Source: an uncultured Planctomycetales bacterium (GTDB lineage Bacteria; Omnitrophota; Gorgyraeia; Zapsychrales; JAHFFX01). From it: 57,583 nucleotides of DNA. A program made the position numbers and the translations under genes. Shown here piece by piece: positions 5,320 to 48,338 of the stretch. The stretch lies in NCBI GenBank assembly GCA_964620805.1, contig CAZUJQ010000003.1, positions 1 to 57,583 of the forward strand. The letters are read 5' to 3'. How positions within the stretch are numbered: position 1 is the stretch's first letter; each line of letters begins with the position of its first letter. Under the pieces are notes generated by a model. That model did not search any database. It was not told the DNA's origin and saw only the letters and a program-made list of their open reading frames with translations.

Positions 5320-5763
5320 ATGGAAGAAAAAATAGAACACATAGAAGGTGGCATTGCCATCGATGATCGAGGGCAGATCCAGTTTTGCAACGGTTTCACT
5401 TTTAAGGATATCCGCCGTTTTTATATCATTTTTAATCATGAAGCGCAATTTGTGAGGGCCTGGCACGGACATAAAAATGAAACAAAGTATGCGTTTGTCG
5501 TTTCCGGTGCGGCTATCGTTGCGGCTGTCAAAATCGACCATTGGGAAAGACCGGATAAAAACGCAAAGATGCACCGTTATGTGCTTAGCGAAAAAAAGCC
5601 GAGTATTTTAAAAATTCCCGGGGGTTTTGCCCATGGCTTTAAAACATTGACAAAAGATACGAAAATCATTTTTTTCTCTACCTCAACGGTTGAAGAAAGC
5701 CTCAAAGACGATTACCGCTTTGAAGCCTATTATTGGAATCCTTGGGAAATCCTGCAAAGATGA
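5320..5763 (+). CDS. Cupin-fold NDP-4-keto-6-deoxyhexose 3,5-epimerase (RmlC-like)
   Basis: DDRG, VRAWHGHK, IPGGFAHGFKTL; start moved to ATG 5320 behind AAGAGG. Confidence 0.8.
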   Translation: MEEKIEHIEGGIAIDDRGQIQFCNGFTFKDIRRFYIIFNHEAQFVRAWHGHKNETKYAFVVSGAAIVAAVKIDHWERPDKNAKMHRYVLSEKKPSILKIPGGFAHGFKTLTKDTKIIFFSTSTVEESLKDDYRFEAYYWNPWEILQR

Positions 5764-7217
5764 CAAAAAAGAAAGGTGACGTTATGGCCACCTATCCCTT
5801 GAATAACTTCGAGCTGATGCCTGCGTCTAAACTCAAGGCAGAAAATACCATTCATGATGCCCTGGATATTATTGAGGATAGGTATTGGATGATTGTTGTG
5901 ATTGTGGATGAGAAGGACAAAATCTGCGGTGTGGCCTCTGCCGGTGATTTACGTAAGGCTATTCTGAATGGAAGTTCGGTATACGCCTCACTCTCATCGG
6001 TCATGAATAAAAATCCTGTGTCTATCAAAGTAGGCCAATTACGGAATGTCAAAAGTGTCAACCGTGTTTTAGATGATTTAAGAAAGCGTTATGGCAGTAT
6101 CACGATGTTATACGCCATGGTTCCGGTCGTCAGCGAAGAGGAGCGCGTGCTCGGTCTAATCAGCCTCGAGTCTTTAACCAGTTACACTTCGAGTCCTGAG
6201 ATTAAGGCCCATCGACGCACCGTTTTAGTGGTCGGGGGTGCAGGCTACATCGGATCCGTTTTAACGAGGATATTATTGGAAAGCGGATGGAGTGTGCGGG
6301 TGTTGGATAAATTATTATATTCACAAGATTCTCTCAAAGGCCTCCAGGACGACCGGTTTACACTGATCAAAGGCGATGCCGGAAATATCGATGATATTGT
6401 GACCACGGTTGAGAATGTGGATGCTGTGGTTTATCTGGCGGAATTGGTTGGTGACCCCGCTTGTTCCTTTGCGCCCCAATCGACCTTAAAGACGAACTAT
6501 TTAGCCGTGACCTCGATGGCCCATTTGTGCTCACACTTAAACATCAACCGGTTTGTTTATACTTCGTCGTGCAGTGTGTATGGGGCCAGTAAAAATTTAG
6601 ACGACTTATTAAGCGAGGAATCGTCCGTTGAGCCGATTTCGCTTTATGCGAGGATAAAAGCACTCGTCGAGCAATCTATTCTGTCGGTGTGCAACTTGCC
6701 TAATCAATTATTTGCGCCCACCATTTTACGCTTAGGGACAGTTTTCGGTCATTCGTATCGCCCGCGGTTTGATCTGGTGGTTAATACTTTTGTTAAAAAT
6801 GCTTTGCAAAAAGGGATCATAGAGGTTTTCGGCGGGGAACAATGGCGGCCGAATGTTCATGTGAGGGATGTGGGGCAAGCCATTCTTCGCGTTTTGAATG
6901 CCCCCATGGAAAAAGTGAGGGCGCAAGTTTTTAACGTTGGCAGCAACGAGTTAAATTATCCCATTGGTGATTTGGCAAAGATTGCCAAGGAAGTTTTTCC
7001 GGAAGTCAAAATCGTTAAAAAGAAGAACGTTGTTGATGATAGAAATTACCGTGTCAGCTTTACCAAAATTGAAAAGGTATTAGGATCTCAGGGCATGGTC
7101 GGCATTAAAGAAGGAATGATGGAATTAAAAAAAGCCCTCGAGCAAAATGAATTAGCCGATTTGGATGCGGCTAAATACAGCAATTTTAAAATGCTTCAGG
7201 AGTTAAAATTAGTTTGA
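5760..7217 (+). CDS. CBS-pair domain fused to NAD-dependent epimerase/dehydratase
   Basis: N-terminal CBS-like IVVIVDEKDKICGVASAGDLRKAIL..VMNKNP..VPVVSEEERVLGLIS; C-terminal GGAGYIG and YARIK. ATG overlaps the upstream stop. Confidence 0.8.
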   Translation: MTKKKGDVMATYPLNNFELMPASKLKAENTIHDALDIIEDRYWMIVVIVDEKDKICGVASAGDLRKAILNGSSVYASLSSVMNKNPVSIKVGQLRNVKSVNRVLDDLRKRYGSITMLYAMVPVVSEEERVLGLISLESLTSYTSSPEIKAHRRTVLVVGGAGYIGSVLTRILLESGWSVRVLDKLLYSQDSLKGLQDDRFTLIKGDAGNIDDIVTTVENVDAVVYLAELVGDPACSFAPQSTLKTNYLAVTSMAHLCSHLNINRFVYTSSCSVYGASKNLDDLLSEESSVEPISLYARIKALVEQSILSVCNLPNQLFAPTILRLGTVFGHSYRPRFDLVVNTFVKNALQKGIIEVFGGEQWRPNVHVRDVGQAILRVLNAPMEKVRAQVFNVGSNELNYPIGDLAKIAKEVFPEVKIVKKKNVVDDRNYRVSFTKIEKVLGSQGMVGIKEGMMELKKALEQNELADLDAAKYSNFKMLQELKLV

Positions 7218-7221
7218 AATC

Positions 7222-8439
7222 ATGTCAACGCCATCAGAATCACTGAGAACAACTTATATCCCTTACGCGAGGCAGAGTTTGGATGCCGACGATATTGAGG
7301 CTGTTGTTGAGACTTTAAGAAGCGATTGGATCACCCAAGGACCAAAAATCAACGAATTCGAAAAGGCGGTTGCCGCCAAGGTCCAAGCCCAATATGCCAT
7401 CGCCGTTTCAACGGGAACGGCAGCGCTTCATTGTGCCTGCTTTGCGGCAGGAATAACAAAGGGAGACGAAGTTATCACCTCTCCCATTACTTTTGCGGCA
7501 AGCGGAAATTGTGCTCTTTTTTTGGGGGCTTCGGTTAAATTTGTTGATATACGACCGGATACTTATTGCATTGATTACAAAAAATTGGAATCGGCCATAA
7601 CCTTCCGCACCAAAGCAATCATACCGGTCGATTTTGCCGGCCAGCCCTGTGATATGGATGAAATCAACGCCATCGCCAAAAAATATCATTTAATCGTGAT
7701 TCATGATGCCGCTCATTCGCTGGGCGCAGCATATAAAAATCGGCCCGTAGGTTCGCTTGCCGATATGACCATCTTATCCTTTCATCCGGTCAAACACATT
7801 ACAACAGGTGAAGGGGGAATGGTTTTAACCGACGGTGAACAATTGGCCAAACAGTTGCGGCTTTTTCGTACGCACGGAATCACCAGCAATGAGGAAAGCA
7901 TGATTCTAAGAGATCAGGCCGCCGATAATAACGGCTTAAATGGCGGGAACGGAAATTCCAAGGCCGCCTGGTACTATGAGATGCAGGCGTTAGGGTACAA
8001 CTACCGCATTACAGATATGCAATGTGCGCTGGGTTTAAGTCAATTGAAGAAATTAGACGACTTTATTAACCGTCGCAGGAAAATTGTCGAACGGTACAAT
8101 CAGGCCTTTAAAGAATCTCCTTTTATCATTATTCCGCATGTGGAAAAGGACCGTCAAAGCGCCTGGCATCTTTATATGCTGCGTTTGAGGTTGGATAAAA
8201 TGACTAAAACACGACGTCAAGTCTTTGAGGAGTTGCGATCGTTAGGAATCGGCGTGCACGTTCATTACATTCCTCTCCATCTACAACCTTACTATCAAAA
8301 AAATTTTGGCTATAAAAGGGGGGATTTTCCCCAGGCAGAAAGCTACTATGATTCGGCCTTGACGATCCCTTTATTCCCCAGCATGACGGATGAGGAATGT
8401 CGCTATATTATCGAAGGGGTGTTAAAAACAGTTCAATGA
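7222..8439 (+). CDS. pseC: DegT-family sugar aminotransferase, PseC type
   Basis: IPYARQ..WITQGP, SFHPVKHITTGEGG (PLP lysine), WYYEMQALGYNYRITDMQCALG. Confidence 0.85.
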   Translation: MSTPSESLRTTYIPYARQSLDADDIEAVVETLRSDWITQGPKINEFEKAVAAKVQAQYAIAVSTGTAALHCACFAAGITKGDEVITSPITFAASGNCALFLGASVKFVDIRPDTYCIDYKKLESAITFRTKAIIPVDFAGQPCDMDEINAIAKKYHLIVIHDAAHSLGAAYKNRPVGSLADMTILSFHPVKHITTGEGGMVLTDGEQLAKQLRLFRTHGITSNEESMILRDQAADNNGLNGGNGNSKAAWYYEMQALGYNYRITDMQCALGLSQLKKLDDFINRRRKIVERYNQAFKESPFIIIPHVEKDRQSAWHLYMLRLRLDKMTKTRRQVFEELRSLGIGVHVHYIPLHLQPYYQKNFGYKRGDFPQAESYYDSALTIPLFPSMTDEECRYIIEGVLKTVQ

Positions 8440-9095
8440 TTACATTACCAGATTTTAGTAAGACTTTTGATTACGAAAATAACTTTTATCTCTCCTGTGA
8501 TGCAACGAGGATAGGTAAAATGCTTGCCCAGTACGAACTCTATAAGATGGTCCATGAAATTCCCGGGGTCATCGTAGAATGCGGCGTGCTTAAAGGGTGC
8601 TCGTTTATCCGGTTTGCATCTTTTCGCGATCTATTTGGACATGCTTTTTCTAGGAAGCTCATCGGTTTCGATACTTTCGGAACTTTCCCAGAGACTCATT
8701 TTGAGGCGGATAAAACAATGAGGCAGAGACACGAAGAGATGTGCGGAGAAAGCATATCAAAACAGCAATTACTGGGAGTTTTGCAACATAAGGGCTTGGA
8801 TAAAAATGTCGAACTCATTGAAGGAGATATCACCGAGACACTGCCTAAATATCTCGCTGGTCATTATGAATTGAAGCTCTCTCTTTTAAATATGGATGTG
8901 GATATCTACGAACCTTCAAAACTCATCTTAGAAAGTCTTTTCCCTAGGATTGTCAAAGGGGGTGTCTTGATTCTTGATGATTACGGGGTTTTCCCCGGTG
9001 AGACAAAAGCGGCAGACGAATATTTTAAGAATAAAAATATCAAGATCCAAAAATTCCCTTTTTGCATGACGCCCAGCTACGTGATTAAAGAATGA
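8436..9095 (+). CDS. TylF/MycF/NovP-family O-methyltransferase
   Basis: GVIVECGVLKG, GFDTF, LLNMDVDIYEPS, GGVLILDDYG; start at ATG 8436 overlapping the pseC stop. Confidence 0.8.
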   Translation: MITLPDFSKTFDYENNFYLSCDATRIGKMLAQYELYKMVHEIPGVIVECGVLKGCSFIRFASFRDLFGHAFSRKLIGFDTFGTFPETHFEADKTMRQRHEEMCGESISKQQLLGVLQHKGLDKNVELIEGDITETLPKYLAGHYELKLSLLNMDVDIYEPSKLILESLFPRIVKGGVLILDDYGVFPGETKAADEYFKNKNIKIQKFPFCMTPSYVIKE

Positions 9096-9124: not shown

Positions 9125-10111
9125 ATGCATTTTTTAATTATTGGATGCGGTTCGATCGGCCAGCGTCACATGAATAACCTTCAGGCCATGGGATATGACG
9201 TTACAGGATGCGATCCCGACCTCGCCCGCATAAATCTAATCAAAAGAAGATTCGGTATTGGTGTTTTTGATAACTTAAGACAGGCATTATCAAACGACTA
9301 TGACGCCGCATTGATCTGTGTGCCGACGAGTCTTCACCTTCCCTTAGCGATCGAGGTCGCCAAGCGAGGGATGCATCTGTTTATCGAAAAGCCTCTTTCC
9401 CATAGCTATGAGAGGATTGACGAATTGCAATCGATTGTCCGAAAGAAGAAAGTGACGGTCTTGGTCGGATGCAATACAAGATTTTTGCCGAGCCTCGTAT
9501 TGGCCCAAAAGTTTATTAAAGAGAACAGAATCGGAAAGATCTTATCGGCTAGAGTAGAATGCGGATTTTATCTTCCCTATTGGCATCCGCATGAAGATTA
9601 CCGCAATAGCTACAGTGCCAAGAAACATCTTGGCGGAGGCGTTATCTTCGATGATATCCATGAAATTGATTCCTTGATGTGGCTTTTAGGCGAAGTCCAA
9701 GAGGTATTCTGTTGCAAAGATACCCTTAGTAACCTTGAGATCAATACCGAAGATATTGCCGAGATCATCCTCAGGTTTCAATCAAAGACCATTGCCCAAA
9801 TTCATCTGGATTATTTGCAAAAGACCTACAGGCGTCAGTATATGTTTATTGGCGAGAAGGGAGATATTATCTGGGATTATATCGGTCAAGAAGTTAGACT
9901 TTATTTAAAGAAGACAAATCAATGGCAGGTCTTTCAGGAGAGCATTAATACAAAACGTGAAGTCATGTTTTTAAATGAGATGGAGCATTTCATTAATTGC
10001 ATACAGGGAAAAGAGCGGTCCGTAAACGATCTTGATTTTTCTAAAAAGATTTTAAAAGTCGCTTTGGCTTGCCTGAAATCCGCAGAAAGAAGAAAGGTCA
10101 TCACAGTATGA
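9125..10111 (+). CDS. Gfo/Idh/MocA family oxidoreductase
   Basis: IIGCGSIGQRH, HLFIEKPLS, GGGVIFDDIHEID. Confidence 0.85.
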   Translation: MHFLIIGCGSIGQRHMNNLQAMGYDVTGCDPDLARINLIKRRFGIGVFDNLRQALSNDYDAALICVPTSLHLPLAIEVAKRGMHLFIEKPLSHSYERIDELQSIVRKKKVTVLVGCNTRFLPSLVLAQKFIKENRIGKILSARVECGFYLPYWHPHEDYRNSYSAKKHLGGGVIFDDIHEIDSLMWLLGEVQEVFCCKDTLSNLEINTEDIAEIILRFQSKTIAQIHLDYLQKTYRRQYMFIGEKGDIIWDYIGQEVRLYLKKTNQWQVFQESINTKREVMFLNEMEHFINCIQGKERSVNDLDFSKKILKVALACLKSAERRKVITV

Positions 10112-12162
10112 TCGCTGGAATCATTCAAGCGAGAATGTCATCGACACGATTGCCCAATAAGACGTTAATGAAGATCATGGGGAAACCCCTATTATGGCAT
10201 CTTTTAGAAAGGGTCAAGCAGTCCCATTACATAGACGAGATTGTGATCGCAACAACCCATAATCCCAAGGATGATTTTATCGTGGATTTTGCCAGAAAAT
10301 ACGGGGTGAGGGTCTTTCGAGGAGATGAACACGATGTGCTAGGCCGTTTTTATCAGGCGGCTAAGGAAATACAGGCAAGGACAATCGTCCGCGTGACCCC
10401 CGACTGTCCGCTCCTATGCCCCCAGGTTATCGACCGGGTGATTGCCCAGTATTTAGAAGGTTCTTTTGATTATGCGACGAATACGCTTGTCTATACTTAT
10501 CCCGATGGTTATGACGTGGAGGTCTTCTCATTTGCAACGCTTGAGAAAACTTGGAAAGAATGCAAAGACCCTTTAAGTCGAGAACATGTTACTCTTTATA
10601 TGAAAAATTCGGGACGATTTAGGATTATCAATACATCCAATGAGATACCACTGGATTCGGCAGAATATAAATGGTCGGTTGACACTATAGAGGATTTAAA
10701 TTTTGTAAAGAAAATTTACGAACATTTATATCGAGGCAATGGAAAAATCTTCTCCATGAACGAAATTCTCAATTTATTGAGAAAACATCCTGAAATTAGA
10801 AAGATCAATTCAGGGATGGTTATCAATGAAGGTTATTACAAGAGCATATCAAAACTAAAAAAAGTGAACCCGCGAAGCCTTAAGCGACAAAAATCGCTGT
10901 TATTAAAGAAAAAAGCCGAAAGGCTCATTCCCGGCTGCAGTCAAACCTTTAGCAAGGCTCCCTTTCAATTTGTGCAAAGTGTTGCGCCCGTATTTGTCGA
11001 AAAAGGAACAGGGAGCCACCTTTGGGACGTGGACGGTAACGACTATATCGATTATGCCATGGCATTAGGCCCAGTGATTTTAGGGTACCACGATCCAATC
11101 GTGAACGAAGCTGTCAAAAAGGTTTTAACAAATGGAGTAACCTTTACCCTTCCTCATCGGTTGGAAATTGAGCTTGCCGAAGTTCTCTGTGAAATAATAC
11201 CCTGTGCCGAAATGGTGAGATTCGGCAAAAATGGTTCTGATGCCACCACCGGCGCCGTGCGGCTCGCCCGTGCCTATACACGGCGAGATAAAATTGCTTG
11301 CTGTGGTTATCATGGATGGCAGGATTGGTATATTGCAACCACCACACGCAACAAAGGGATCCCCGAAGACACTCGAAAACTCACCCTCACTTTTTCCTAT
11401 AACAAAATAGAGAGCTTGAAAAAAATTTTTGATGAGAATAAAAACGAGATTGCTGCTGTGATCATGGAACCGGTGGGGGTGGTTGCCCCGGAAGATGATT
11501 TCTTATCAAAGGTTAAGGAGTTGACACACCAACAGGGAGCTGTGCTTATTTTTGATGAAATTGTGACAGGCTTTCGTTTTTCATTAGGTGGAGCCCAGCA
11601 ATATTTCAACGTGGTGCCCGATCTTGCCTGCTTCGGCAAGGCCATAGCCAATGGTTTTCCGTTATCTGTGGTTGTAGGAAAAAAAGAGATCATGAAATTA
11701 TTTGGAGAGGTTTTTTACTCTTTTACGGCGGGAGGAGAAATCGTTTCCATTATGGCGGCGATCGCGACAATTCAAGAGCTACAAAGAAAAAAAGTCATAG
11801 AATTTTTATGGGAACAGGGTCGCAAGATCAAAGATGGTTACAATGTTTTGGCTCGTCAATACGAATTGGAGCCATATACGCGCTGTGTCGGTTTTCCTCC
11901 TCGCACGGTCATTGAATTTAAAAATGAGAGGGGCGAAGATGATTTGATCTTGAAAAGTCTATTCCAGCAGGAATGCATTAAGCGCGGCCTCCTCTTTACC
12001 GGAACGCACAACATCTGTTTCTCTCATTCCAACAGGGATATTGAGTATACTTTAAAAGTTTACAGGACAGTTTTAGAAATTATTCTGTCTGCCCGAAAAA
12101 AAAATAGGATAAGAAAACTTCTCAAAGGCGATCCCATAGTTCCTATTTTTAGGACATATTAA
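10108..12162 (+). CDS. SpsF-like cytidylyltransferase fused to class III (GSA-like) PLP aminotransferase
   Basis: N-term IIQARMSSTRLPNKTL..RVTPDCPL..REHVT..WSVDTIED; C-term WDVDGNDYID, GKNGSDAT, LIFDEIVTGFR, CFGKAIANG. Confidence 0.85.
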   Translation: MIAGIIQARMSSTRLPNKTLMKIMGKPLLWHLLERVKQSHYIDEIVIATTHNPKDDFIVDFARKYGVRVFRGDEHDVLGRFYQAAKEIQARTIVRVTPDCPLLCPQVIDRVIAQYLEGSFDYATNTLVYTYPDGYDVEVFSFATLEKTWKECKDPLSREHVTLYMKNSGRFRIINTSNEIPLDSAEYKWSVDTIEDLNFVKKIYEHLYRGNGKIFSMNEILNLLRKHPEIRKINSGMVINEGYYKSISKLKKVNPRSLKRQKSLLLKKKAERLIPGCSQTFSKAPFQFVQSVAPVFVEKGTGSHLWDVDGNDYIDYAMALGPVILGYHDPIVNEAVKKVLTNGVTFTLPHRLEIELAEVLCEIIPCAEMVRFGKNGSDATTGAVRLARAYTRRDKIACCGYHGWQDWYIATTTRNKGIPEDTRKLTLTFSYNKIESLKKIFDENKNEIAAVIMEPVGVVAPEDDFLSKVKELTHQQGAVLIFDEIVTGFRFSLGGAQQYFNVVPDLACFGKAIANGFPLSVVVGKKEIMKLFGEVFYSFTAGGEIVSIMAAIATIQELQRKKVIEFLWEQGRKIKDGYNVLARQYELEPYTRCVGFPPRTVIEFKNERGEDDLILKSLFQQECIKRGLLFTGTHNICFSHSNRDIEYTLKVYRTVLEIILSARKKNRIRKLLKGDPIVPIFRTY

Positions 12163-12187
12163 GATAGATCCGAATAGGAGGTATCGA

Positions 12188-13903
12188 ATGTCAATCCAGT
12201 TAGAGCAACAGACATTAAACAGGTTCTTCTACCGATTCCAATGCGACGGTAGAATTGCCGATCCCAAGGAAGCCCGCATCACGACAGAGGATTCCGAACG
12301 GCAATTCCCAGCAAGAGACGACGGATTGCTGGTGCTGCTGATCAATCCCCCTATTCGAGAATGGTCATATCCCAATATCATGCCCGTGGGGCAGGGATAT
12401 GTTGCTTCGGTTGCGGTTATGGACGGCCACCGTGTAGAGACGCTGGATTTAAATGCTCTTCGCCGACAACCGATTAAAACCTCACCGGAAGAATTTTCTA
12501 AATGGGTGGAGGAGAAAATCACACAGGCCCTTCTTAAGGTCAGGCCTGATGTGATTGGCATAGGAGGAATCATCACGCAATATGGAAGGATAAAGCAGAT
12601 TACAAATATTTGCAAGAGGGTTTGCCCCCAAACGCCCATTGTCTTAGGTGGCGGGATCGCTTCGTGTATGCCGGAGTTTATGGTCAAGAGATTGCCGATC
12701 GATGTGGCTGTGATGAAAGAAGGAGAGGTTATTTTTTCTGAAGTTCTCCATCGAATAGAACACAGGGTTTCCTTTGAAGGGCTGGCGGGTGTTGCGTATC
12801 GACACGAAATACGCCCCGGAGAATGGGAAGCCAGAAATAACGGCTTACGGACTTCCATTTCGGCCCGCGAACAAGGATTGGATTGTCTGCCATGGCCTCT
12901 TCGTTCGCGATGGCCGATTGATGAGATTTATAAGAGAAACCCCATAGGGCATCTGAATTGGAAGAGCAAATGGATTGACGGAGCTCCGACCACGAATATG
13001 TATTCTGTTGAGATGATTGCCTCGCGTGGCTGCCCTTATGCAGCCAAGGCTTGCGATTATTGTTATGCCTCTTATTTAGGCAAAACCTACCGGTTAAGAA
13101 CTCCTAAAGAAGTCGTGGATGAAATGCAATATATTAGTAGGCGCTATCAGGCCGAATATATCCATTTTCTGGATGATTTATTGATGACGGATTACCGCTG
13201 GGCCATGGAATTATGTGATGAGCTGAGAAAACGAAAGGCGCAGTCGGGATGGGAGGTGATGTGGGGCGGCACGTGTCGGACGAATATCATTGCGGATGAT
13301 GTGATTCGGGCAAAAAAAGAGGGGCGACCTCATATCTTGGAGCTTGCCTATGAGGTTGGGATGCGACAGGCCGGCTATGGTGTCGAATCCGCAAGCCCGA
13401 CGATTTTAAAATCCATCGATAAAAGCGGCCAAACCGTAGAAAAGATAGAAATCTCCATTCGTGAGACGCAGAGAGTGATGGGCTATGCGGATTGTTCATT
13501 TATGATTGGTTCTCCCGGTGAGACAAGACAGACGGTGCGAGAGACCGTTGATGTTTGCAAGAGGATTGGTTTAAAGCCAGAGGTGTTCTTTTTTACGACC
13601 GCCTATCCGGCCACTTCCTTTTGGGATTTAGCGTTGGAAAAAGGGTTGATCACAAAGGCCGTTACAGGAAAAAAAGGGCCGGCAGACGAAGATATTATTG
13701 AGGAGTATTTCTTACGTTTAGGAGAGCAGGGCGAAGAGGTCCGGACCAATTTTAGCGATCTGCCGGATGAGGAAATTGCTGAACTTTCCTGGTGGGCGGT
13801 CACAGAATTAGGGGCTCAAAATACCGTCCGCCATCCTCACTCCGGAGAACAGCAGGAGCGGAAAAAACCAGCTATACGAGGAGCGACGAAGGCAGATTTA
13901 TAA
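12188..13903 (+). CDS. Cobalamin-binding radical SAM protein (class B methyltransferase-like) with atypical CX6CX2C
   Basis: LLINPP..DVIGIGGI..IVLGGG..GEGE-like (KEGE) B12-binding region; SRGCPYAAKACDYC; HFLDD, GVESASPTIL; strong AGGAGG RBS. Confidence 0.82.
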   Translation: MSIQLEQQTLNRFFYRFQCDGRIADPKEARITTEDSERQFPARDDGLLVLLINPPIREWSYPNIMPVGQGYVASVAVMDGHRVETLDLNALRRQPIKTSPEEFSKWVEEKITQALLKVRPDVIGIGGIITQYGRIKQITNICKRVCPQTPIVLGGGIASCMPEFMVKRLPIDVAVMKEGEVIFSEVLHRIEHRVSFEGLAGVAYRHEIRPGEWEARNNGLRTSISAREQGLDCLPWPLRSRWPIDEIYKRNPIGHLNWKSKWIDGAPTTNMYSVEMIASRGCPYAAKACDYCYASYLGKTYRLRTPKEVVDEMQYISRRYQAEYIHFLDDLLMTDYRWAMELCDELRKRKAQSGWEVMWGGTCRTNIIADDVIRAKKEGRPHILELAYEVGMRQAGYGVESASPTILKSIDKSGQTVEKIEISIRETQRVMGYADCSFMIGSPGETRQTVRETVDVCKRIGLKPEVFFFTTAYPATSFWDLALEKGLITKAVTGKKGPADEDIIEEYFLRLGEQGEEVRTNFSDLPDEEIAELSWWAVTELGAQNTVRHPHSGEQQERKKPAIRGATKADL

Positions 13904-13905
13904 TC

Positions 13906-14937
13906 ATGATGAAAGTTTTTATCAGGGTTGATGCCTCGGATGTCATTGGAACGGGGCATATGTTTCGCACGCTTGTTTTGGCTGAGGGTTTGCGCGCCTT
14001 ATCAGATGATGTGACTTTTTTATGTCGGGATTTACCATATTTCCCCAGCAAAAGAATTACCGATTTGGGCTTTCGCTTAAGTATTATCCCGCCCGCTGAT
14101 TCTTTGAGCGGTGAATTACCTTTGATCCAAGAAAAAATAGCCCGTGAGCAACCGGACTGGATCATTATCGATCATTACGACATTAAAAAAGATTATTATT
14201 TATATTTAAGGAGAAATCGAATCAAAATCTTGTCGATTGACGATATCAATCATACCCGTTTTCCTGTCGATGTCTTACTCAACCAGAATGTCAATGCCTT
14301 TGAGCATAAGTATCAATGTGAGAAAGAAACCATTCAATTGCTTGGGACCCAATATGCTCTCGTGAGAGAAATTTACCGCCAAAAAAGAAAACAAGCCACG
14401 ATAAGAGATTCTTTAAAAAAGGTTCTTATCTTTATGGGAGGATCTGATCCGGATAATCAGACCCTGAAAGTTTTAAACGCCTTAACTTTATCGCGGCGCA
14501 AAGTTGATGCCGATATTGTCCTTGGACCGGCCTTTCAACATAAGGATATGATTGAGAAAGAGGCATCGAGAAACGGTATTAGATATTCTATCCATCAAAA
14601 TCTTGACCATCTGGCCGATGTGATGTTAAGGACCGATCTGGCGATTGGTGCAGGGGGTTTAGCCAGTTTGGAGATGGCGACCATGAAATTGCCGATGATC
14701 CTTATGCCCATCGCGGACAATCAAAGACAGATTGCCCAATGCCTGCATGAGAAGGGGGCGGCAATCAACGCCGGATGGTTTAAGAATGTCGATGAGCAGC
14801 ATATCGCCAAAATCCTTACAGGTCTTTCTTTAGAAAAAGTAAATCAGATGAGTCGAATCGCCAGCCGCCTTTGCGATGGTGAGGGTGTAAATTCAGTCCT
14901 AGAGATCATGGATTCGGTTTTACAGGGAGCAAAATGA
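13906..14937 (+). CDS. pseG: UDP-2,4-diacetamido-2,4,6-trideoxyhexose hydrolase, PseG type
   Basis: FIRVDASDVIGTGHMFR, IIIDHY, LLGTQYALVR, FMGGSDP, IADNQ. Confidence 0.85.
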   Translation: MMKVFIRVDASDVIGTGHMFRTLVLAEGLRALSDDVTFLCRDLPYFPSKRITDLGFRLSIIPPADSLSGELPLIQEKIAREQPDWIIIDHYDIKKDYYLYLRRNRIKILSIDDINHTRFPVDVLLNQNVNAFEHKYQCEKETIQLLGTQYALVREIYRQKRKQATIRDSLKKVLIFMGGSDPDNQTLKVLNALTLSRRKVDADIVLGPAFQHKDMIEKEASRNGIRYSIHQNLDHLADVMLRTDLAIGAGGLASLEMATMKLPMILMPIADNQRQIAQCLHEKGAAINAGWFKNVDEQHIAKILTGLSLEKVNQMSRIASRLCDGEGVNSVLEIMDSVLQGAK

Positions 14938-15980
14938 AACGGATTGTTAGAATTGGAAAACGATTTATCGGCGACGGCCATCCGTGTTTTATCATTGCGG
15001 AGGCGGGGAGCAATCATAACGGAAATCTTGAAAAAGCCTTCCGCTTGATTGATGTGGCTGCGCAGGCCCAGGCCGATGCCATTAAGTTTCAAACCTTCAA
15101 GGCAGAAAAGCTCTACATCAAAAAAGCCGGCTATGCCGATTATCTGAACAACAAAAAATCTATTTATCAAATTATCAAAGAGATGGAGATGCCGGAAAGC
15201 TGGATCCCGCGTCTAGCCGCATACTGCGATAAGAAAGGAGTTGTTTTTCTCTCAACGCCGTTTGATGAGCAGTCCGTTGATCTTTTGGATCGTTATGTAC
15301 CGGCCTTCAAAATAGCATCTTATGAAATGAGCCATATCCCCCTCGTTAAACACATTGCCAAGAAAGGGAAGCCCATTATTATGTCAACAGGAACAGCTCA
15401 TCTCAAAGAAGTGGAAAAGAGTGTTCGGGTTATAAAAAGCCAAGGTAATGAAGAATTGATCCTCATGCAGTGCACAGCCTGTTACCCGGCGCCCCTGGAT
15501 TCGTTAAATCTGCGAAGTATTGTTACCATGAAAACAAAGTTCCAAGTTCCGATGGGACTTTCCGACCACTCCCGTGAGTTTGATATCGGACCTCTAGCCG
15601 CGATTGCGCTTGGGGCCAATTGTCTTGAGAAGCATGTTACGCTATCGAATAAACTTGAGGGACCGGATCATAAGTTTGCCGTTGAGCCAGAGGAATTAAG
15701 GTTAATGGTCAAAAAGATAAGAGAAGTTGAAGTAGCGCTCGGTACTGGCAGAAAAGAGGTTCTGGGAGTCGAAAGAGAACTTCGTCGGTTCGCCCGTCGA
15801 AGCGTTTTTGCTATAGAGAATATCCATCCCGGTGATATCTTTTCAACGAGAAACACGGCCGTGCTAAGAGCCGGCAAAATTCGCTACGAAATTAAACCCG
15901 AAGAATACGAAAATATTTTAGGGAGAAGCGCCAAAAGAAGGATAGAAAAATATAATTCGATAAAAAGAGGTGATTATTAA
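14934..15980 (+). CDS. neuB: Nonulosonic acid synthase (NeuB/SpsE/PseI family) with C-terminal SAF domain
   Basis: IIAEAGSNHNG, IKFQTF, FLSTPFD, FKIASYE, GLSDHS, LEKHVTL, DH, RRSVFA. Confidence 0.88.
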   Translation: MKRIVRIGKRFIGDGHPCFIIAEAGSNHNGNLEKAFRLIDVAAQAQADAIKFQTFKAEKLYIKKAGYADYLNNKKSIYQIIKEMEMPESWIPRLAAYCDKKGVVFLSTPFDEQSVDLLDRYVPAFKIASYEMSHIPLVKHIAKKGKPIIMSTGTAHLKEVEKSVRVIKSQGNEELILMQCTACYPAPLDSLNLRSIVTMKTKFQVPMGLSDHSREFDIGPLAAIALGANCLEKHVTLSNKLEGPDHKFAVEPEELRLMVKKIREVEVALGTGRKEVLGVERELRRFARRSVFAIENIHPGDIFSTRNTAVLRAGKIRYEIKPEEYENILGRSAKRRIEKYNSIKRGDY

Positions 15981-28119: not shown

Positions 28120-30131
28120 AAGCACTGTCTAAGAAATCTAAGAAGCCCAAACCACCAATGTCAGATCCCATCGATATCGGACAAGAGATTTATGGGCTTA
28201 TGGTTGAGCTTTATCCGATTTGCCGTAGTATCACCGGCGATGGCGTTCGAAAAACGCTGCGCATAATTTCAAAACATATTCCCCTTAAGGTCACAGAAGT
28301 GCCGACCGGGATAAAAGTGTTGGATTGGACCGTACCCAGAGAGTGGAACATTAAGGATGCTTATATTAAAAATTCTAGGGGAGAGAAGATAATAGATTTC
28401 AAGCATTCCAATCTGCATGTTTTGAATTACAGTGTGCCTGTCTCTAAAACGGTAAACCTCGAAGAATTAAAGAAACATATTTTTACTTTGCCCCAATATC
28501 CCGATCGAATACCTTACCGGACGTCCTATTATCAGGAGAATTGGGGCTTTTGTATGACTCACCATCAGTTCCAGCAATTAAAAGAGGATACGTATAAAGT
28601 TGTGATCGACTCAGAGCTAAAAGAAGGGAGCCTTACCTTTGGTGAGTTCTTTCTTGAGGGGAATTCAAAAGAAGAAATCTTGTTTTCCTGTTATCTTTGC
28701 CATCCCTCTTTGTGCAATGACAATTTAAGCGGAATTGTCCTTTTGACATTCTTGGCCAAATCCCTTTTAGGGCATTCTTTAAAATATTCGTATCGGTTTT
28801 TGTTTATTCCGGAGACAATCGGCTCTATTACGTGGTTGAGTTTAAATGAAGAAAGGGTCGAAAATATCAAAGGTGGATTAGTCGCAACCTGTGTGGGTGA
28901 TCCCGGTTCAATGACCTACAAGAAAAGCCGCAAAGCAAATACCTTGATTGATAAGACGGTGGAAAAAGCCCTGATTGATTTAAAAGATCCCTATAAAATC
29001 ATCGACTTTTTTCCATCGGGAAGCGATGAGCGTCAATTCTGTTCTCCGGGTTTTAATTTGCCGATCGGTTCATTGATGAGGACCCCCTACGGGCAGTTTT
29101 CTCAATATCATACTTCGGCCGATAATTTAGATTTTGTAGAGCCTCAATATTTAGGCGATTCCTTTAAAAAATATGAAGCGGTCGTTTCAATCTTAGAAAA
29201 AGATAGTACCTACCTTAATCTTAATCCTAAATGCGAGCCTCAATTGGGAAAGCGGGGACTTTACAGTATGATCAGCGGATTTGGTGAGGACGGAGCCAGG
29301 GAGGTAGCTATGCTCTGGGTTCTTAATCTTTCCGATGGAAACCACTCCCTCTTAGATATTGCTATCCGTTCACAATTGCCTTTTGAACGGATTAGAGAGG
29401 CGGCCGACGCCTTATTGAAAAGCGGTCTATTAAAAATCGCACTAACCACACAGAAAGAAGATTTTACTCCGATGTCCCCATGTCCATCTCAGGCGGATGA
29501 AGCAGCGGTGGATCGGAGTTTCCCGACCGAAGCATCGGGGAACCGCGAAACAAAAGAGGCCATGGACGATAGCCCACGGAGCTTCACCTTAAGGCAGGCG
29601 CGGAAGAATGACTGCAAGGATTTATGGGTTTGGCGCAATCACCCTGAGGTCAGAAAGTGGTGTTTTAATAAAGAGGGAATCCCCTATGGGCAGCATAAAA
29701 CATGGTTTGAAGGGATATCAAAAAACGGCAAAACAACGATATTTATCATACAAGGGAAGGATAAGGAAAAGCTCGGCCAAGTGAGGTTCGATGGTGTCGG
29801 TTCTGAAAAGGCTCTCATCAATATCAATCTTAATCCGAAATTTTTTAACAGAGGAATCGGGACGCGCGCGATTCAAATGGCGACAAGAATTTTTTTAGAG
29901 TCCACCCCGGCAGTTAAAGAAATTATTGCCGAGATTTTTAAACAGAATGCCGTTTCAAAGCGAGCTTTTCAAAAAGCGGAATATTTAAAGCTAAGAAGTG
30001 AAGTCAAAAACAACGAGAAAATAGAGATTTTTTCCTTTAAGCGTAGCCTTAAAGTTCCTGAAAATGCAAGTGAAAAATCAAACCGATATATTTATGAAAA
30101 AAGAGGGCAATGCCTGGTTTCAGAGAAATAA
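28101..30131 (+). CDS. DUF4910 (DUF2172 + M28-like + HTH) protein fused to PseH-like GNAT acetyltransferase
   Basis: YPICRSITGDGVRKT, WTVPREW, YRTSYYQENWGFC, CHPSLCNDNLSG, SDERQFCSPG, YHTSAD, CEPQLGKRGLY; then LRQARKNDCKDLWVWRNHPEVR..HKTWF..IGTR..NAVSKRAF. True start may be ATG 28158. Confidence 0.82.
   Translation: MGNLQLKALSKKSKKPKPPMSDPIDIGQEIYGLMVELYPICRSITGDGVRKTLRIISKHIPLKVTEVPTGIKVLDWTVPREWNIKDAYIKNSRGEKIIDFKHSNLHVLNYSVPVSKTVNLEELKKHIFTLPQYPDRIPYRTSYYQENWGFCMTHHQFQQLKEDTYKVVIDSELKEGSLTFGEFFLEGNSKEEILFSCYLCHPSLCNDNLSGIVLLTFLAKSLLGHSLKYSYRFLFIPETIGSITWLSLNEERVENIKGGLVATCVGDPGSMTYKKSRKANTLIDKTVEKALIDLKDPYKIIDFFPSGSDERQFCSPGFNLPIGSLMRTPYGQFSQYHTSADNLDFVEPQYLGDSFKKYEAVVSILEKDSTYLNLNPKCEPQLGKRGLYSMISGFGEDGAREVAMLWVLNLSDGNHSLLDIAIRSQLPFERIREAADALLKSGLLKIALTTQKEDFTPMSPCPSQADEAAVDRSFPTEASGNRETKEAMDDSPRSFTLRQARKNDCKDLWVWRNHPEVRKWCFNKEGIPYGQHKTWFEGISKNGKTTIFIIQGKDKEKLGQVRFDGVGSEKALININLNPKFFNRGIGTRAIQMATRIFLESTPAVKEIIAEIFKQNAVSKRAFQKAEYLKLRSEVKNNEKIEIFSFKRSLKVPENASEKSNRYIYEKRGQCLVSEK
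29483..29543. repeat. Two short palindromes inside the DUF4910-GNAT linker
   Basis: TCCATC-TCA-GGCGGA (29483-29497, imperfect) and GTTTCCCGA-CCGAAGCA-TCGGGGAAC (29518-29543, 9-bp stem with one G-U). Confidence 0.5.
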
Positions 30132-48054: not shown

Positions 48055-48338
48055 TGGTTGATGAAAAGCACGTAACCGAGATTGTGCTACAAGTCATCAA
48101 AAAGGTTGACCCAGCGTTACTCCGGGGTCAAAATCCGAAAGATATCAATGATATTCCTTTGGTTGGCAATATGGAATCCATGGCTATGCTGACTTTGGTT
48201 GTTGGTTTAGAAGATGCTTTAAAAAAAGAATTCGGCAAGGATATTGGTCTATTAGAAATTGAGAGTGATTCAGGCGTGCATCTTCTTAAAACGATTGGCA
48301 CAATAACTCACTATATTACCCAAACTCTAGAGAAATGA
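48054..48338 (+). CDS. Acyl carrier protein
   Basis: LVGNMESMAMLTLVVGLEDAL; AAGGAG RBS; ATG overlaps the upstream stop; precedes a FabH-like gene. Confidence 0.68.
   Translation: MVDEKHVTEIVLQVIKKVDPALLRGQNPKDINDIPLVGNMESMAMLTLVVGLEDALKKEFGKDIGLLEIESDSGVHLLKTIGTITHYITQTLEK

What the first reader, a model, noticed from the sequence alone, without database searches (positions are those of the whole stretch)
13031..13063. B12 radical SAM enzyme with a non-canonical CX6CX2C cluster motif inside a nonulosonate pathway
Seen in DNA: tgc cct tat gca gcc aag gct tgc gat tat tgt = C-PYAAKA-C-DY-C, versus canonical CX3CX2C in the second copy (CPFNCGFC). The protein also has a ~45-aa N-terminal extension and lies between the CMP-transferase fusion and pseG. 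Established: B12 radical SAM enzymes methylate unactivated carbons or phosphorus. Inference: a new C-methylation or rearrangement of a sugar acid or its acyl group.
Basis: partly seen in the sequence, partly recalled or inferred. Interest (0 to 1): 0.66.

Follow-up and report, generated by a model that had tools for sequence, protein, structure and literature searches.

The report
B12 radical SAM enzyme in pseudaminic-acid clusters
The unusual cysteine spacing is real and is conserved across a large, uncharacterised family of B12-type radical SAM enzymes that always sits inside pseudaminic-acid-type sugar-acid gene clusters, which suggests a sugar-acid modification nobody has described, although the odd spacing looks like a harmless loop insertion.

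Summary
Window 13031-13063 encodes C282-PYAAKA-C289-DY-C292 in a 571-aa protein (12188-13903, +) with a B12-binding domain and a radical SAM core. The CX6CX2C spacing is not an assembly quirk. All 169 family members retrieved carry C-P-Y-A-x-x-A-C-D-Y-C, in at least 15 phyla, including CPR bacteria and a DPANN archaeon. The clade has one origin and is nested in a grade of 50-69 % identical relatives with canonical CPYSCDYC, so the difference is a single 3-residue loop insertion whose two middle residues vary freely. Both the canonical grade and more distant canonical relatives (about 30-38 % identity, no N-terminal extension) sit in the same gene slot: PseB, PseC, radical SAM, GFO oxidoreductase, cytidylyltransferase, class-III aminotransferase, PseG, NeuB. 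The spacing therefore does not mark a new chemistry. The notable result is the family itself. NeuB lies within 10 kb in 29 of 29 long loci, the enzyme is far better conserved than its neighbours (median 70 % versus 27-49 % for the pathway genes), and I found no literature on it. My best guess, untested, is cobalamin-dependent C-methylation of a nucleotide-linked pseudaminic-acid intermediate.

The parts
12188..13903 (+). Gene for the 571-aa B12-binding-domain radical SAM enzyme (class B architecture) with a CX6CX2C motif
   Evidence: ORF. Pfam PF02310 and PF04055 both above their cutoffs. AF2 model with pLDDT 93.6 and pTM 0.92. Best PDB fold matches are TsrM, OxsB, MgmA, AprD4, CysS and TokK.
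12176..12181 (+). AGGAGG ribosome-binding site 6 nt upstream of the ATG at 12188
   Evidence: Sequence read. It supports the annotated start and therefore the N-terminal extension.
12188..12328 (+). N-terminal extension, residues 1-47 (family consensus ERFYQRF...WPRITTEESE..F)
   Evidence: Conserved in the CX6 clade and the canonical sister grade. Absent from relatives at 30-40 % identity, whose alignments start at query residue 48-49. pLDDT is 96-98 from residue 11.
12380..12745 (+). B12-binding (Rossmann) domain, residues 65-186, with the GG (154-155) and EGE (178-180) motifs
   Evidence: PF02310 at 54.8 bits. G154 is invariant, and G155, E178, G179 and E180 are at least 90 % conserved over 146 sequences. 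The family profile aligns this domain with those of TsrM, OxsB and CysS, and its EGE-motif part with MgmA, but not with AprD4's N-terminal domain.
13016..13552 (+). Radical SAM core, residues 277-455
   Evidence: PF04055 at 47.7 bits. G398 and E400 (in GxES) and E445 are invariant, and D329 is nearly so, across 146 sequences.
13031..13063 (+). Cluster motif C282-P-Y-A-A-K-A-C289-D-Y-C292 (CX6CX2C). Compared with canonical CPYSCDYC it carries a 3-residue insertion
   Evidence: In 169 sequences the two middle residues have 2.1 and 2.2 bits of entropy and every other motif position has 0.10 bits or less.
13852..13900 (+). Conserved but predicted-disordered C-terminal tail (...RGATKADL)
   Evidence: Conserved in alignments A1 and A3. 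pLDDT is below 50 for residues 551-556 and 559-571. Role unknown.
10069..12162 (+). Fusion of a CTP_transf_3 cytidylyltransferase with a class-III (GSA-aminomutase-like) aminotransferase. The true start may be the ATG at 10108
   Evidence: An orthologous fusion (62 % identity) lies beside a canonical-motif relative in L055. Found in 19 of 29 long loci.
9125..10111 (+). GFO/IDH/MocA oxidoreductase, the most frequent downstream neighbour of the radical SAM gene in other genomes
   Evidence: Present in 17 of 29 loci and immediately downstream in 16 of 46 loci.
8397..9095 (+). TylF-family SAM-dependent methyltransferase
7222..8439 (+). PseC, UDP-4-amino-4,6-dideoxy-N-acetyl-beta-L-altrosamine transaminase
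   Evidence: TIGR03588 at 515 bits, cutoff 423.5. A DegT gene lies immediately upstream of the radical SAM gene in 13 of 46 loci.
5323..7217 (+). Cupin (3,5-epimerase-like) plus CBS-domain SDR dehydratase, the likely stand-in for PseB
   Evidence: The same pair precedes DegT and the radical SAM gene in L006, L020 and L042.
13906..14937 (+). PseG, UDP-sugar hydrolase. It starts 3 nt after the radical SAM stop codon
   Evidence: TIGR03590 at 239 bits, cutoff 153.55. Junction read.
14934..15980 (+). NeuB-family nonulosonate synthase (PseI-like)
   Evidence: PF03102 at 290 bits. TIGR03586 PseI scores 310.6 and TIGR03569 NeuB scores 361.7, both just below their cutoffs. Present in 29 of 29 long loci.
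29580..30131 (+). C-terminal GNAT domain of a DUF4910 protein, the candidate PseH
   Evidence: PF13302. TIGR03585 PseH scores 45 bits, below its cutoff of 93.

Best explanation
The gene encodes an intact class-B (B12-binding-domain) radical SAM enzyme that is an accessory, tailoring component of a pseudaminic-acid-type nonulosonic-acid pathway. Cys282, Cys289 and Cys292 most likely bind the SAM-cleaving [4Fe-4S] cluster as in canonical enzymes. The CX6CX2C spacing comes from one ancient 3-residue insertion (x-x-A) into the cluster loop. That insertion is tolerated as a bulge, became fixed in one large clade and spread widely across phyla. It does not define a new chemistry, because relatives with the canonical motif fill the same slot. 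As for the reaction, the enzyme most likely uses 5'-deoxyadenosyl radical chemistry plus methylcobalamin to C-methylate an unactivated carbon of a nucleotide-linked intermediate. That substrate would be either the UDP-4-amino-4,6-dideoxy-AltNAc stage after PseC or CMP-pseudaminic acid after the cytidylyltransferase. It often works with an optional GFO oxidoreductase and class-III aminotransferase pair that would convert a neighbouring hydroxyl into an amine. The domain architecture, motif conservation, single origin and gene-neighbourhood linkage are shown. Cluster binding, cobalamin use, the substrate and the methylation are inferred.
For: Architecture: both Pfam domains are above cutoff. The AF2 model is confident (pLDDT 93.6), and its best fold matches are cobalamin radical SAM enzymes: TsrM (E = 1e-24), OxsB, MgmA, CysS and TokK. 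The family profile aligns the B12 domain, including the GG and EGE motifs, with TsrM, OxsB, CysS and in part MgmA. Motif: the three Cys are invariant over 146 sequences spanning 28-77 % identity. The clade consensus is CPYAxxACDYC, with only the two middle residues variable. The CX6 clade is monophyletic (60 of 60) and nested in a canonical CPYSCDYC grade. An intein in homologue P0121 uses the third Cys as its +1 residue; inteins typically sit at essential sites (general knowledge). Pathway link: NeuB is within 10 kb in 29 of 29 loci, DegT/PseC in 24 of 29 and PseG in 20 of 29. The usual order is PseB, PseC, radical SAM, then GFO-cytidylyltransferase-aminotransferase or a cytidylyltransferase alone, then NeuB, GNAT and PseG. 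In the window, PseC and PseG pass their equivalog cutoffs. Loci such as L022, L026 and L037 have all six canonical Pse steps plus the radical SAM gene, so it adds a step and replaces none. Same slot for canonical relatives: L048-L051 and L054-L056. In L055 the fusion is 62 % identical, GFO 54 % and DegT 51 % to the window's, while the radical SAM gene is only 36 % identical. Precedent for methylation: four of the six closest solved enzymes are methylases. In gentamicin biosynthesis an oxidoreductase (GenD2), a transaminase (GenS2), an N-methyltransferase (GenN) and a cobalamin radical SAM C-methyltransferase (GenD1) act on adjacent sugar carbons (PMC4340712). That mirrors the GFO, aminotransferase, methyltransferase and radical SAM module seen here.
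Against: No biochemical evidence exists. No NCBIfam equivalog for any characterised class-B enzyme comes near its cutoff; the best is 99 bits against 360. The strongest PDB sequence-profile match to the radical SAM core is AprD4, deposited as a 1,2-diol dehydratase and therefore not a methylase; by my recollection, not checked here, it uses no cobalamin. The family occurs in CPR bacteria, a DPANN archaeon and virus-like contigs. Such organisms normally cannot make cobalamin (general knowledge), so use of B12 would depend on salvage, or the enzyme may not need it. To my knowledge no C-methylated nonulosonic acid has been described. Cys142 and Cys363 are invariant in this family but absent from the canonical outgroup, and Cys436 is fixed only in the CX6 clade. 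A thiol H-atom donor, as radical epimerases use, is therefore possible.
Confidence: 0.5

Rival explanations
1. The enzyme is dedicated to the same pathway but does not methylate. It could be a radical epimerase, an AprD4-like dehydratase/deoxygenase with the adjacent GFO oxidoreductase as the follow-up reductase, or a carbon-skeleton or amino-group rearrangement working with the GSA-aminomutase-like aminotransferase.
For: AprD4, a sugar 1,2-diol dehydratase, is the best sequence match to the radical SAM core (E = 2e-5 for the single sequence; 4.8e-41 for the profile), and it also has a non-canonical cluster motif (CPYPCRFYC). A GFO oxidoreductase is the most common immediate downstream gene (16 of 46). 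Family-specific invariant Cys142 and Cys363, and clade-specific Cys436, could serve as H-atom donors. The family is found in organisms unlikely to make B12. OxsB shows that class-B enzymes can catalyse rearrangements.
Against: The N-terminal domain keeps the hallmark B12-domain motifs and aligns with the B12 domains of TsrM, OxsB and CysS, whereas AprD4's N-terminal domain is not aligned. The AprD4 model NF033070 scores 38 bits against a cutoff of 500. GFO and the aminotransferase are missing from several loci that keep the radical SAM gene (L022, L026, L039, L040), so an obligatory reductase partner is not conserved. The candidate thiols are absent from the canonical outgroup that fills the same slot.
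Confidence: 0.3
2. The enzyme is a cobalamin radical SAM methylase, but its target is an N-acyl substituent and not the sugar skeleton. For example, it could extend the acetyl group on N5 or N7 to propionyl or a branched acyl group, as the TokK and CysS type does.
For: TokK and CysS, which are deposited with pantetheine-linked substrates, are among the fold matches; from my own knowledge they build alkyl side chains by sequential methylation. The window also encodes an acyl-building set: SDR, FabH, MaoC-SDR, FkbH and methyltransferases. L055 has SDR and FabH next to its module.
Against: The acyl-building genes are rarely found near the radical SAM gene in other loci: 0-2 of 29. The radical SAM gene tracks the core genes PseB, PseC, PseG and NeuB and the cytidylyltransferase. 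TokK and CysS are weaker matches than TsrM, MgmA and AprD4.
Confidence: 0.12
3. The CX6CX2C spacing itself changes function. It might create a different cluster environment that blocks normal SAM cleavage (TsrM-like polar methyl transfer), or it might recruit a different third ligand, giving this clade a different reaction from its canonical relatives.
For: TsrM is the top fold match. Cys436 became fixed at the same time as the insertion. The loop has lower model confidence (pLDDT 81-87) than the rest of the protein. The clade is unusually strongly conserved, with median 70 % identity against 27-49 % for the neighbouring pathway genes.
Against: The two inserted middle residues vary freely, which is what a passive bulge would show. 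P0293, with the canonical motif, is 69 % identical. Canonical relatives share the same neighbours. Other radical SAM families with CX4-CX11 spacings are listed as ordinary variants of the motif (PMC9477430). Lower pLDDT at a metal site is expected in a model built without its cofactor.
Confidence: 0.07

Closest known systems
GenD1 and GenK, cobalamin-dependent radical SAM C-methyltransferases of gentamicin biosynthesis
   Same: They are class-B radical SAM enzymes acting on an amino-sugar carbon. GenD1 works in a four-enzyme set with an NAD(P)-linked oxidoreductase (GenD2), a transaminase (GenS2) and an N-methyltransferase (GenN) (PMC4340712). This parallels the GFO, class-III aminotransferase, methyltransferase and radical SAM module here.
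   Different: Their substrates are pseudo-oligosaccharides, not nucleotide-linked nonulosonate intermediates. I did not test whether GenD2 belongs to the GFO/IDH/MocA family.
TsrM (PDB 6wte/6wtf), cobalamin-dependent tryptophan C2-methyltransferase
   Same: It is the best structural match (Foldseek E = 1.3e-24, TM about 0.6) and has the same B12-Rossmann plus radical SAM barrel architecture. Its B12 domain aligns with the family profile.
   Different: Identity is only 19-21 %. TIGR04428 scores 23 bits against a cutoff of 500. TsrM has a canonical motif and a different substrate class. By my recollection it works without radical SAM cleavage.
AprD4 (PDB 6fd2), radical SAM 1,2-diol dehydratase of apramycin biosynthesis
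   Same: It is the best sequence match among solved structures in the radical SAM core. It acts on an amino sugar and also has a non-canonical cluster motif (CX3CX3C, seen in the alignment).
   Different: NF033070 scores 38 bits against a cutoff of 500. Its N-terminal domain does not align with this family's B12 domain. The motif variant is different (CX3CX3C against CX6CX2C).
MgmA (PDB 9ccb; TIGR04014), methyl-coenzyme M reductase glutamine C-methyltransferase
   Same: It is the second-best profile match (E = 4e-38) and has the class-B fold.
   Different: TIGR04014 scores 60 bits against a cutoff of 360. Its substrate is a protein and its motif is canonical.
Fom3, cobalamin radical SAM methylase of fosfomycin biosynthesis (from my own knowledge)
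   Same: It methylates a cytidylylated substrate made by a pathway cytidylyltransferase. This matches the frequent adjacency of this radical SAM gene to a CTP_transf_3 gene (12 of 46 immediately downstream).
   Different: Its substrate is a phosphonate. The relationship was not tested here.
Radical SAM families with other non-canonical spacings (CX4, CX5, CX7, CX8, CX9 and CX11; CX6CX2C in DUF5131)
   Same: These families have extra residues between the first two cluster cysteines (PMC9477430).
   Different: The one published CX6CX2C example I found is DUF5131 (Megacluster-5-2), not the B12-binding subgroup (Megacluster-2-1). That paper's list of examples includes no CX6CX2C case for the B12-binding subgroup.

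Membership tests
Radical SAM superfamily | Match to the superfamily domain model and a partial TIM-barrel fold | tested here: met
   PF04055 at 47.7 bits, cutoff 29.5. The AF2 model matches solved radical SAM enzymes at E down to 1e-24.
Radical SAM superfamily | Three-cysteine CX3CX2C motif on the loop after beta-1 | tested here: inconclusive
   Three invariant Cys sit at the homologous position, but the spacing is CX6CX2C. The strict spacing is not met. The relaxed definition (three Cys, last two as CX2C), which is accepted for other families (PMC9477430), is met.
Radical SAM superfamily | Binds a [4Fe-4S] cluster and cleaves SAM to 5'-deoxyadenosine | not testable with these tools
   This needs anaerobic reconstitution, EPR/UV-vis spectroscopy and a 5'-dA assay.
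Class B (B12-binding-domain) radical SAM enzymes | N-terminal cobalamin-binding Rossmann domain fused to the radical SAM core | tested here: met
   PF02310 at 54.8 bits, cutoff 32.1. The model shows a five-strand beta-alpha pattern at residues 48-175. The GG and EGE motifs are conserved. The profile aligns with the B12 domains of TsrM, OxsB and CysS.
Class B (B12-binding-domain) radical SAM enzymes | Actually binds cobalamin | not testable with these tools
   The presence of the family in CPR, DPANN and virus-like contigs is a caution.
Cobalamin-dependent radical SAM methyltransferases (TsrM, PhpK, HpnR, KedN5, MgmA and RiPP C-methyltransferase models) | Score above the curated cutoff of a characterised methylase family | tested here: not met
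   All are far below cutoff: TIGR04014 at 60/360, TIGR04479 at 64/600, TIGR04367 at 44/650, NF033712 at 32/700, TIGR04428 at 23/500 and TIGR03975 at 64/282.
Cobalamin-dependent radical SAM methyltransferases | Methyl transfer producing SAH plus 5'-dA | not testable with these tools
   This requires an enzyme assay.
AprD4 family radical SAM diol dehydratases | NF033070 above cutoff and a CX3CX3C motif | tested here: not met
   38 bits against 500. The motif here is CX6CX2C.
BchE anaerobic Mg-protoporphyrin cyclase (the name JGI gives several homologues) | TIGR02026 above cutoff | tested here: not met
   85 bits against 481. The genomic context is sugar-acid biosynthesis, not bacteriochlorophyll.
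Pseudaminic-acid biosynthesis locus (context) | PseC and PseG equivalogs present | tested here: met
   TIGR03588 at 515/423.5 and TIGR03590 at 239/153.55.
Pseudaminic-acid biosynthesis locus (context) | PseB, PseH, PseI and PseF equivalogs present | tested here: inconclusive
   PseI scores 310.6/340 and NeuB 361.7/399.7. PseB scores only 30/408, and a CBS-SDR plus cupin pair stands in its place. The PseH-like GNAT scores 45/93. The candidates for PseF are the CTP_transf_3 domain of the fusion and a weak PseF hit (59/206) at 32733-33479.

The most novel reading that the evidence does not exclude
This family, together with its canonical-motif relatives, installs a radical-derived modification on pseudaminic acid, most likely a C-methyl branch or chain extension. 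That would define a previously unrecognised class of nonulosonic acids on the surfaces or flagella of many uncultivated bacteria, CPR and DPANN organisms and some marine viruses. It would also be the first radical SAM step in nonulosonate biosynthesis.
Probability: 0.35. Interest if true: 0.75.

Novelty: new variant of a known kind. Interest (0 to 1): 0.55.

Why it matters
Nonulosonic acids (sialic, legionaminic and pseudaminic acids) decorate flagella, capsules, S-layers and LPS, and they shape recognition by hosts and phages. To my knowledge their known tailoring is N-acylation, O-acetylation or O-methylation, and amidination, none of which needs radical chemistry. This radical SAM enzyme is embedded in the pathway. 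It is conserved at 62-81 % identity in at least 15 phyla (bacteria and a DPANN archaeon), and a canonical sister group occurs on virus-like contigs. That implies a chemically demanding modification, under strong constraint, that has not been described. For radical SAM enzymology, the family is a natural experiment. Close relatives differ only by a 3-residue insertion between the first two cluster ligands, which lets one test how much the cluster loop can be stretched. One carrier, the cyanobacterium Lusitaniella coriacea LEGE 07167, is listed as a strain and not as a MAG, so the question can be tested directly.

Tried and rejected
- **Assembly artefact or private mutation:** rejected, because the spacing is present in all 169 clade members.
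- **Alternative cluster ligands or an auxiliary cluster:** only the three motif Cys are invariant across 146 sequences. The other conserved Cys (142, 363, 436, 457) are scattered and lineage-specific, so no auxiliary cluster is predicted.
- **Named class-B families:** no NCBIfam equivalog came near its cutoff, so I made no assignment. The JGI labels 'BchE' and 'YgiQ' for homologues are rejected on score and context.
- **Cys geometry in the model:** the AF2 coordinates are not exposed to the scripting tool.
- **Cobalamin riboswitch or other RNA element in the window:** none at Rfam gathering thresholds.
- **Recent horizontal transfer from composition:** GC3 is 0.50 against 0.40-0.50 for neighbours, which is not decisive.
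- **Literature:** no relevant paper pairs 'radical SAM' with nonulosonic, pseudaminic, legionaminic, flagellin glycosylation or NeuB. The few co-occurrences, judged from titles and abstracts, are incidental. The library covers open-access papers only.
- **Cultured phage genomes (INPHARED):** no match to the sister clade. IMG/VR holds only two contigs and none for the CX6 clade.
- **Metagenome scan with an outgroup alignment:** it failed for lack of conserved stretches. The single-protein scan returned one locus.
- **Tandem Repeats Finder on 45800-48100:** it found nothing. The direct-repeat tool found the repeat.
Full report
**1. The observation**

Window 13031-13063 reads tgc cct tat gca gcc aag gct tgc gat tat tgt. 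It is in frame with the ORF 12188-13903 (+), 571 aa, giving Cys282-X6-Cys289-X2-Cys292. An AGGAGG lies 6 nt upstream of the ATG, which supports the annotated start.

Pfam finds a B12-binding domain at residues 65-186 (54.8 bits, cutoff 32.1) and a Radical_SAM domain at residues 277-455 (47.7 bits, cutoff 29.5). The gene follows a cytidylyltransferase/class-III aminotransferase fusion (10069-12162). PseG starts 3 nt after its stop codon, and NeuB follows PseG. It belongs to a different family; the two proteins cross-match at only about 25 % identity.

**2. The spacing is a fixed character of a large clade**

- A search of 5.8 billion clustered proteins returned 953 hits at E <= 1e-5. The best 120 are 69-89 % identical over the full length, and all carry CX6CX2C and no CX3CX2C.
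- Pooling all searches gives 169 sequences with C-P-Y-A-x-x-A-C-D-Y-C. The two middle residues have 2.1 and 2.2 bits of entropy. Every other motif position has 0.10 bits or less.
- A scan of one genome per species found 43 loci at 62-81 % identity. They come from Omnitrophota, Methylomirabilota/Rokubacteria, Terriglobia, Nitrospiria, Anaerolineales, Dehalococcoidia, Planctomycetia, Verrucomicrobiota, Alpha-, Gamma- and Deltaproteobacteria, Sericytochromatia, Patescibacteria/CPR, a Pacearchaeota (DPANN) archaeon, and the cyanobacterium Lusitaniella coriacea LEGE 07167, which is listed as a strain and not as a MAG.
- The window's closest relatives are from Omnitrophota (81 %, L005).

**3. Where the spacing came from**

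An exhaustive HMMER search of 1.84 billion 50 %-identity representatives found 24,748 relatives at E <= 1e-3. Among the best 150, only this clade shows the CX6 spacing at the cluster site; every other full-length hit without an intein has a canonical CX3CX2C there.

A sister group of 16 sequences is 49-59 % identical to the window protein, with one member (P0293) at 69 %. These are full length and include the N-terminal extension, but they have CPYSCDYC. In an NJ tree of 146 sequences, the CX6 clade is monophyletic (60 of 60). It is nested inside this canonical grade, branching after P0293, then P0283/P0302, then the other 13. MAFFT places the difference as a clean 3-column gap between CPY and the residue before the second Cys.

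The spacing is therefore one ancient in-frame 3-residue insertion in the cluster loop. The three Cys are invariant across all 146 sequences, which span 28-77 % identity.

**4. The protein looks intact and competent**

- AlphaFold2 with the 146-sequence alignment gives pLDDT 93.6 and pTM 0.92. The model shows a five-stranded Rossmann pattern at residues 48-175 followed by the barrel.
- The cluster loop has lower confidence (pLDDT 81-87), as expected without the metal.
- The N-terminal extension is modelled confidently (pLDDT above 95 from residue 11).
- The conserved C-terminal tail (RGATKADL) is predicted to be disordered.
- Foldseek against the PDB ranks TsrM first (E = 1e-24, TM about 0.6), then OxsB, MgmA, AprD4, CysS and TokK.
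- A profile of the family matches AprD4 (4.8e-41, radical SAM core only), MgmA (4e-38), OxsB (1e-32) and TsrM (5e-29). The last two matches include the B12 domain, with its GG and EGE motifs.
- No auxiliary-cluster cysteine set is conserved.
- No characterised class-B family model comes near its NCBIfam cutoff; the best is 99 bits against 360.

**5. Genomic context**

In the window, PseC (TIGR03588, 515/423.5) and PseG (TIGR03590, 239/153.55) pass their equivalog cutoffs. NeuB scores just below both the PseI and NeuB cutoffs. A CBS-SDR plus cupin pair replaces PseB, and a GNAT domain weakly resembles PseH.

Across 29 related loci longer than 15 kb, tblastn finds the following within 10 kb of the radical SAM gene:

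| Gene | Loci with a hit |
|---|---|
| NeuB | 29 of 29 |
| DegT/PseC | 24 of 29 |
| PseG | 20 of 29 |
| Cytidylyltransferase-aminotransferase | 19 of 29 |
| GFO oxidoreductase | 17 of 29 |

The usual order is PseB, PseC, radical SAM, then either GFO-cytidylyltransferase-aminotransferase or a cytidylyltransferase alone, then NeuB, GNAT and PseG. The gene immediately upstream is most often DegT (13 of 46). The gene immediately downstream is GFO (16 of 46) or a cytidylyltransferase (12 of 46).

Loci such as L022, L026 and L037 have all six canonical Pse steps plus the radical SAM gene, so it adds a step and replaces none. GFO and the aminotransferase are optional; they are absent in L022, L026, L039 and L040.

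The radical SAM protein is much better conserved than its neighbours across these loci. Its median identity is 70 %, against 27-49 % for the PseG, NeuB, GFO, DegT and fusion genes.

**6. Canonical relatives fill the same slot**

Sister-grade loci L048-L051 carry NeuB, a PseB-like gene, CTP_transf_3, GFO, Aminotran_3, GNAT, PIG-L and formyltransferase genes around the radical SAM gene.

More distant relatives (about 30-38 % identity to the window protein, about 455 aa, no N-terminal extension, canonical motif) show the same pattern:

- **L055:** PseB, DegT, radical SAM, GFO, a CTP_transf_3-Aminotran_3 fusion, a PseG-like gene, SDR, FabH. Its fusion, GFO and DegT are 62 %, 54 % and 51 % identical to the window's, but its radical SAM gene is only 36 % identical.
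- **L056:** a similar order.
- **L054:** a flagellar gene cluster (FlgE/F/G, FlgA, FlgH, FlgI, FlgN) followed by B12 radical SAM, CTP_transf_3, NeuB, a SPASM radical SAM, a NeuC-like epimerase, a second B12 radical SAM and methyltransferases.

This is the strongest evidence that the CX6CX2C spacing and the extension mark a lineage and not a new reaction. It also shows that a wider branch of B12 radical SAM enzymes is tied to nonulosonate biosynthesis.

**7. Mechanism**

- **Shown:** the architecture, the conserved Cys triad, the single-origin insertion and the tight pathway linkage.
- **Inferred:** the three Cys bind the SAM-cleaving cluster, with the insertion forming a bulge. Other families with CX4 to CX11 spacings are listed as variants of the motif (PMC9477430).
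- **Most likely reaction:** cobalamin-dependent C-methylation of a nucleotide-linked intermediate.

The reasons for favouring methylation are as follows. The B12-domain hallmarks are retained. Four of the six nearest solved enzymes are methylases. The gene is often adjacent to PseC and to the cytidylyltransferase, which recalls Fom3's cytidylylated substrate (my own knowledge). The gentamicin pathway offers a close parallel: oxidoreductase GenD2, transaminase GenS2, N-methyltransferase GenN and the cobalamin radical SAM C-methyltransferase GenD1 act on adjacent sugar carbons (PMC4340712).

The main rival, at about 0.3, is non-methylating chemistry: epimerisation, AprD4-like dehydration with GFO as the reductase, or a rearrangement. 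It is supported by the AprD4 match, by family-specific Cys142 and Cys363 and clade-specific Cys436, and by the family's presence in organisms that are unlikely to make B12.

**8. Comparison with what is known, and novelty**

The protein is a member of the radical SAM superfamily and of the class-B architecture. The strict CX3CX2C spacing is not met. It is not a member of any characterised class-B family tested.

RadicalSAM.org's published examples list CX6CX2C only for DUF5131 and give no variant-spacing example for the B12 subgroup. Searches of the open-access library found no relevant paper linking radical SAM enzymes to nonulosonic, pseudaminic or legionaminic acid biosynthesis or to flagellin glycosylation.

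I rate it a new variant of a known kind. The motif alone is a modest curiosity. The uncharacterised, widespread, strongly constrained nonulosonate-pathway radical SAM family is the more interesting result.

**9. Verdict**

Interest is 0.55. The most novel reading not excluded is a new class of radical-modified (probably C-methylated) pseudaminic acids, with probability about 0.35.

Noticed in passing
Homologue P0121 (931 aa); also distant relatives P0134 and P0235: P0121 carries a roughly 360-aa intein with a LAGLIDADG homing-endonuclease domain, inserted between C-D-Y and the third cluster cysteine (...CPYASRACDY|AVDAE...ISHN|CYAAYLGK). The cluster ligand is therefore the intein's +1 residue. 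P0134 and P0235 have inteins inside the same motif of their canonical CX3CX2C.
   Followed up: partly
L048-L053 (sister clade with canonical CPYSCDYC): Several sister-clade loci look viral. L049 (a TARA ocean contig) has T4 Gp23 capsid fragments, PDDEXK nucleases and an intein-containing glycosyltransferase. L050 has IF3 among many tiny ORFs. L052 and L053 are IMG/VR viral contigs. All carry a nonulosonate biosynthesis set (NeuB, PseB-like, cytidylyltransferase, GFO, aminotransferase) plus the radical SAM gene. There is no match in cultured phage genomes.
   Followed up: partly
window 12188-13903 compared with its neighbours, across loci L001-L047: The radical SAM protein is far more conserved than the pathway genes around it: median 70 % identity against 27 % (PseG), 40 % (NeuB), 46 % (GFO), 48 % (DegT) and 49 % (fusion). 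This suggests unusually strong constraint, frequent lateral transfer as a unit, or both.
   Followed up: partly
L054:5330-20647: A flagellar gene cluster (FlgE/F/G, FlgA, FlgH, FlgI, FlgN) runs directly into a nonulosonate island. The island has two different B12 radical SAM genes (one with TPR repeats), a SPASM radical SAM, CTP_transf_3, NeuB, a NeuC-like epimerase and three methyltransferases. That is three radical SAM enzymes in one putative flagellin glycosylation island.
   Followed up: partly
window 55980-57530 (-): A second B12-binding radical SAM enzyme (516 aa, canonical CPFNCGFC) has its best NCBIfam scores to BchE, MJ_1487 and HpnJ, all below their cutoffs. It sits beside large multi-pass membrane proteins (52809-55746) at the end of the glycan island. 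Its role is unknown.
   Followed up: partly
window 18992-26058: This is an acyl-chain-building set: a small 104-aa ORF with no Pfam hit, an SDR, a methyltransferase, FabH (KAS III), a MaoC dehydratase-SDR fusion, a second methyltransferase and an FkbH-domain protein (TIGR01686, 282 bits). It probably builds an unusual, possibly methylated hydroxy- or glyceryl-type acyl substituent for the sugar. A related SDR and FabH pair follows the module in L055.
   Followed up: partly
window 32733-37534: A second ulosonic-acid-like module lies here: a PseF/NeuA-like cytidylyltransferase, a HAD phosphatase, an HpcH/HpaI aldolase, a KdsB-subfamily CMP-Kdo synthetase (292 bits, above cutoff), a 2-hydroxyacid dehydrogenase-like protein and an epimerase-like protein (the last two judged from their sequences, not scanned). 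The window thus holds three CTP_transf_3 genes.
   Followed up: partly
window 46888-47446, inside ORF 45883-48054: An internal direct repeat lies in the middle of a 723-aa multi-pass membrane protein. Two 190-nt copies are 92 % identical and spaced 288 nt apart, and a third 79-nt partial copy follows. They encode repeated Ala/Glu/Pro-rich segments (AETPAVSSSGEGE...AEEKAELQGPLEQTSNLSEAVVLSALPE).
   Followed up: partly
window 13493-13495 (Cys436), 12611-12613 (Cys142) and 13274-13276 (Cys363): Cys436 is fixed in the CX6 clade (59 of 60) where the canonical sister grade mostly has Pro. Cys142 and Cys363 are invariant in the CX6 clade and present in 15 of 16 sister sequences, but are replaced by aliphatic or small residues in the canonical outgroup. 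I do not know whether any of them is catalytic.
   Followed up: partly
window 26296-30131: Two adjacent DUF4910/DUF2172 (aminopeptidase-like) proteins are each fused to an acetyltransferase. One has an N-terminal AAC(3)-like Antibiotic_NAT domain, and the other has a C-terminal GNAT with weak PseH similarity. Homologues of the DUF4910 part recur near the radical SAM gene in other loci (L007, L022, L040).
   Followed up: no
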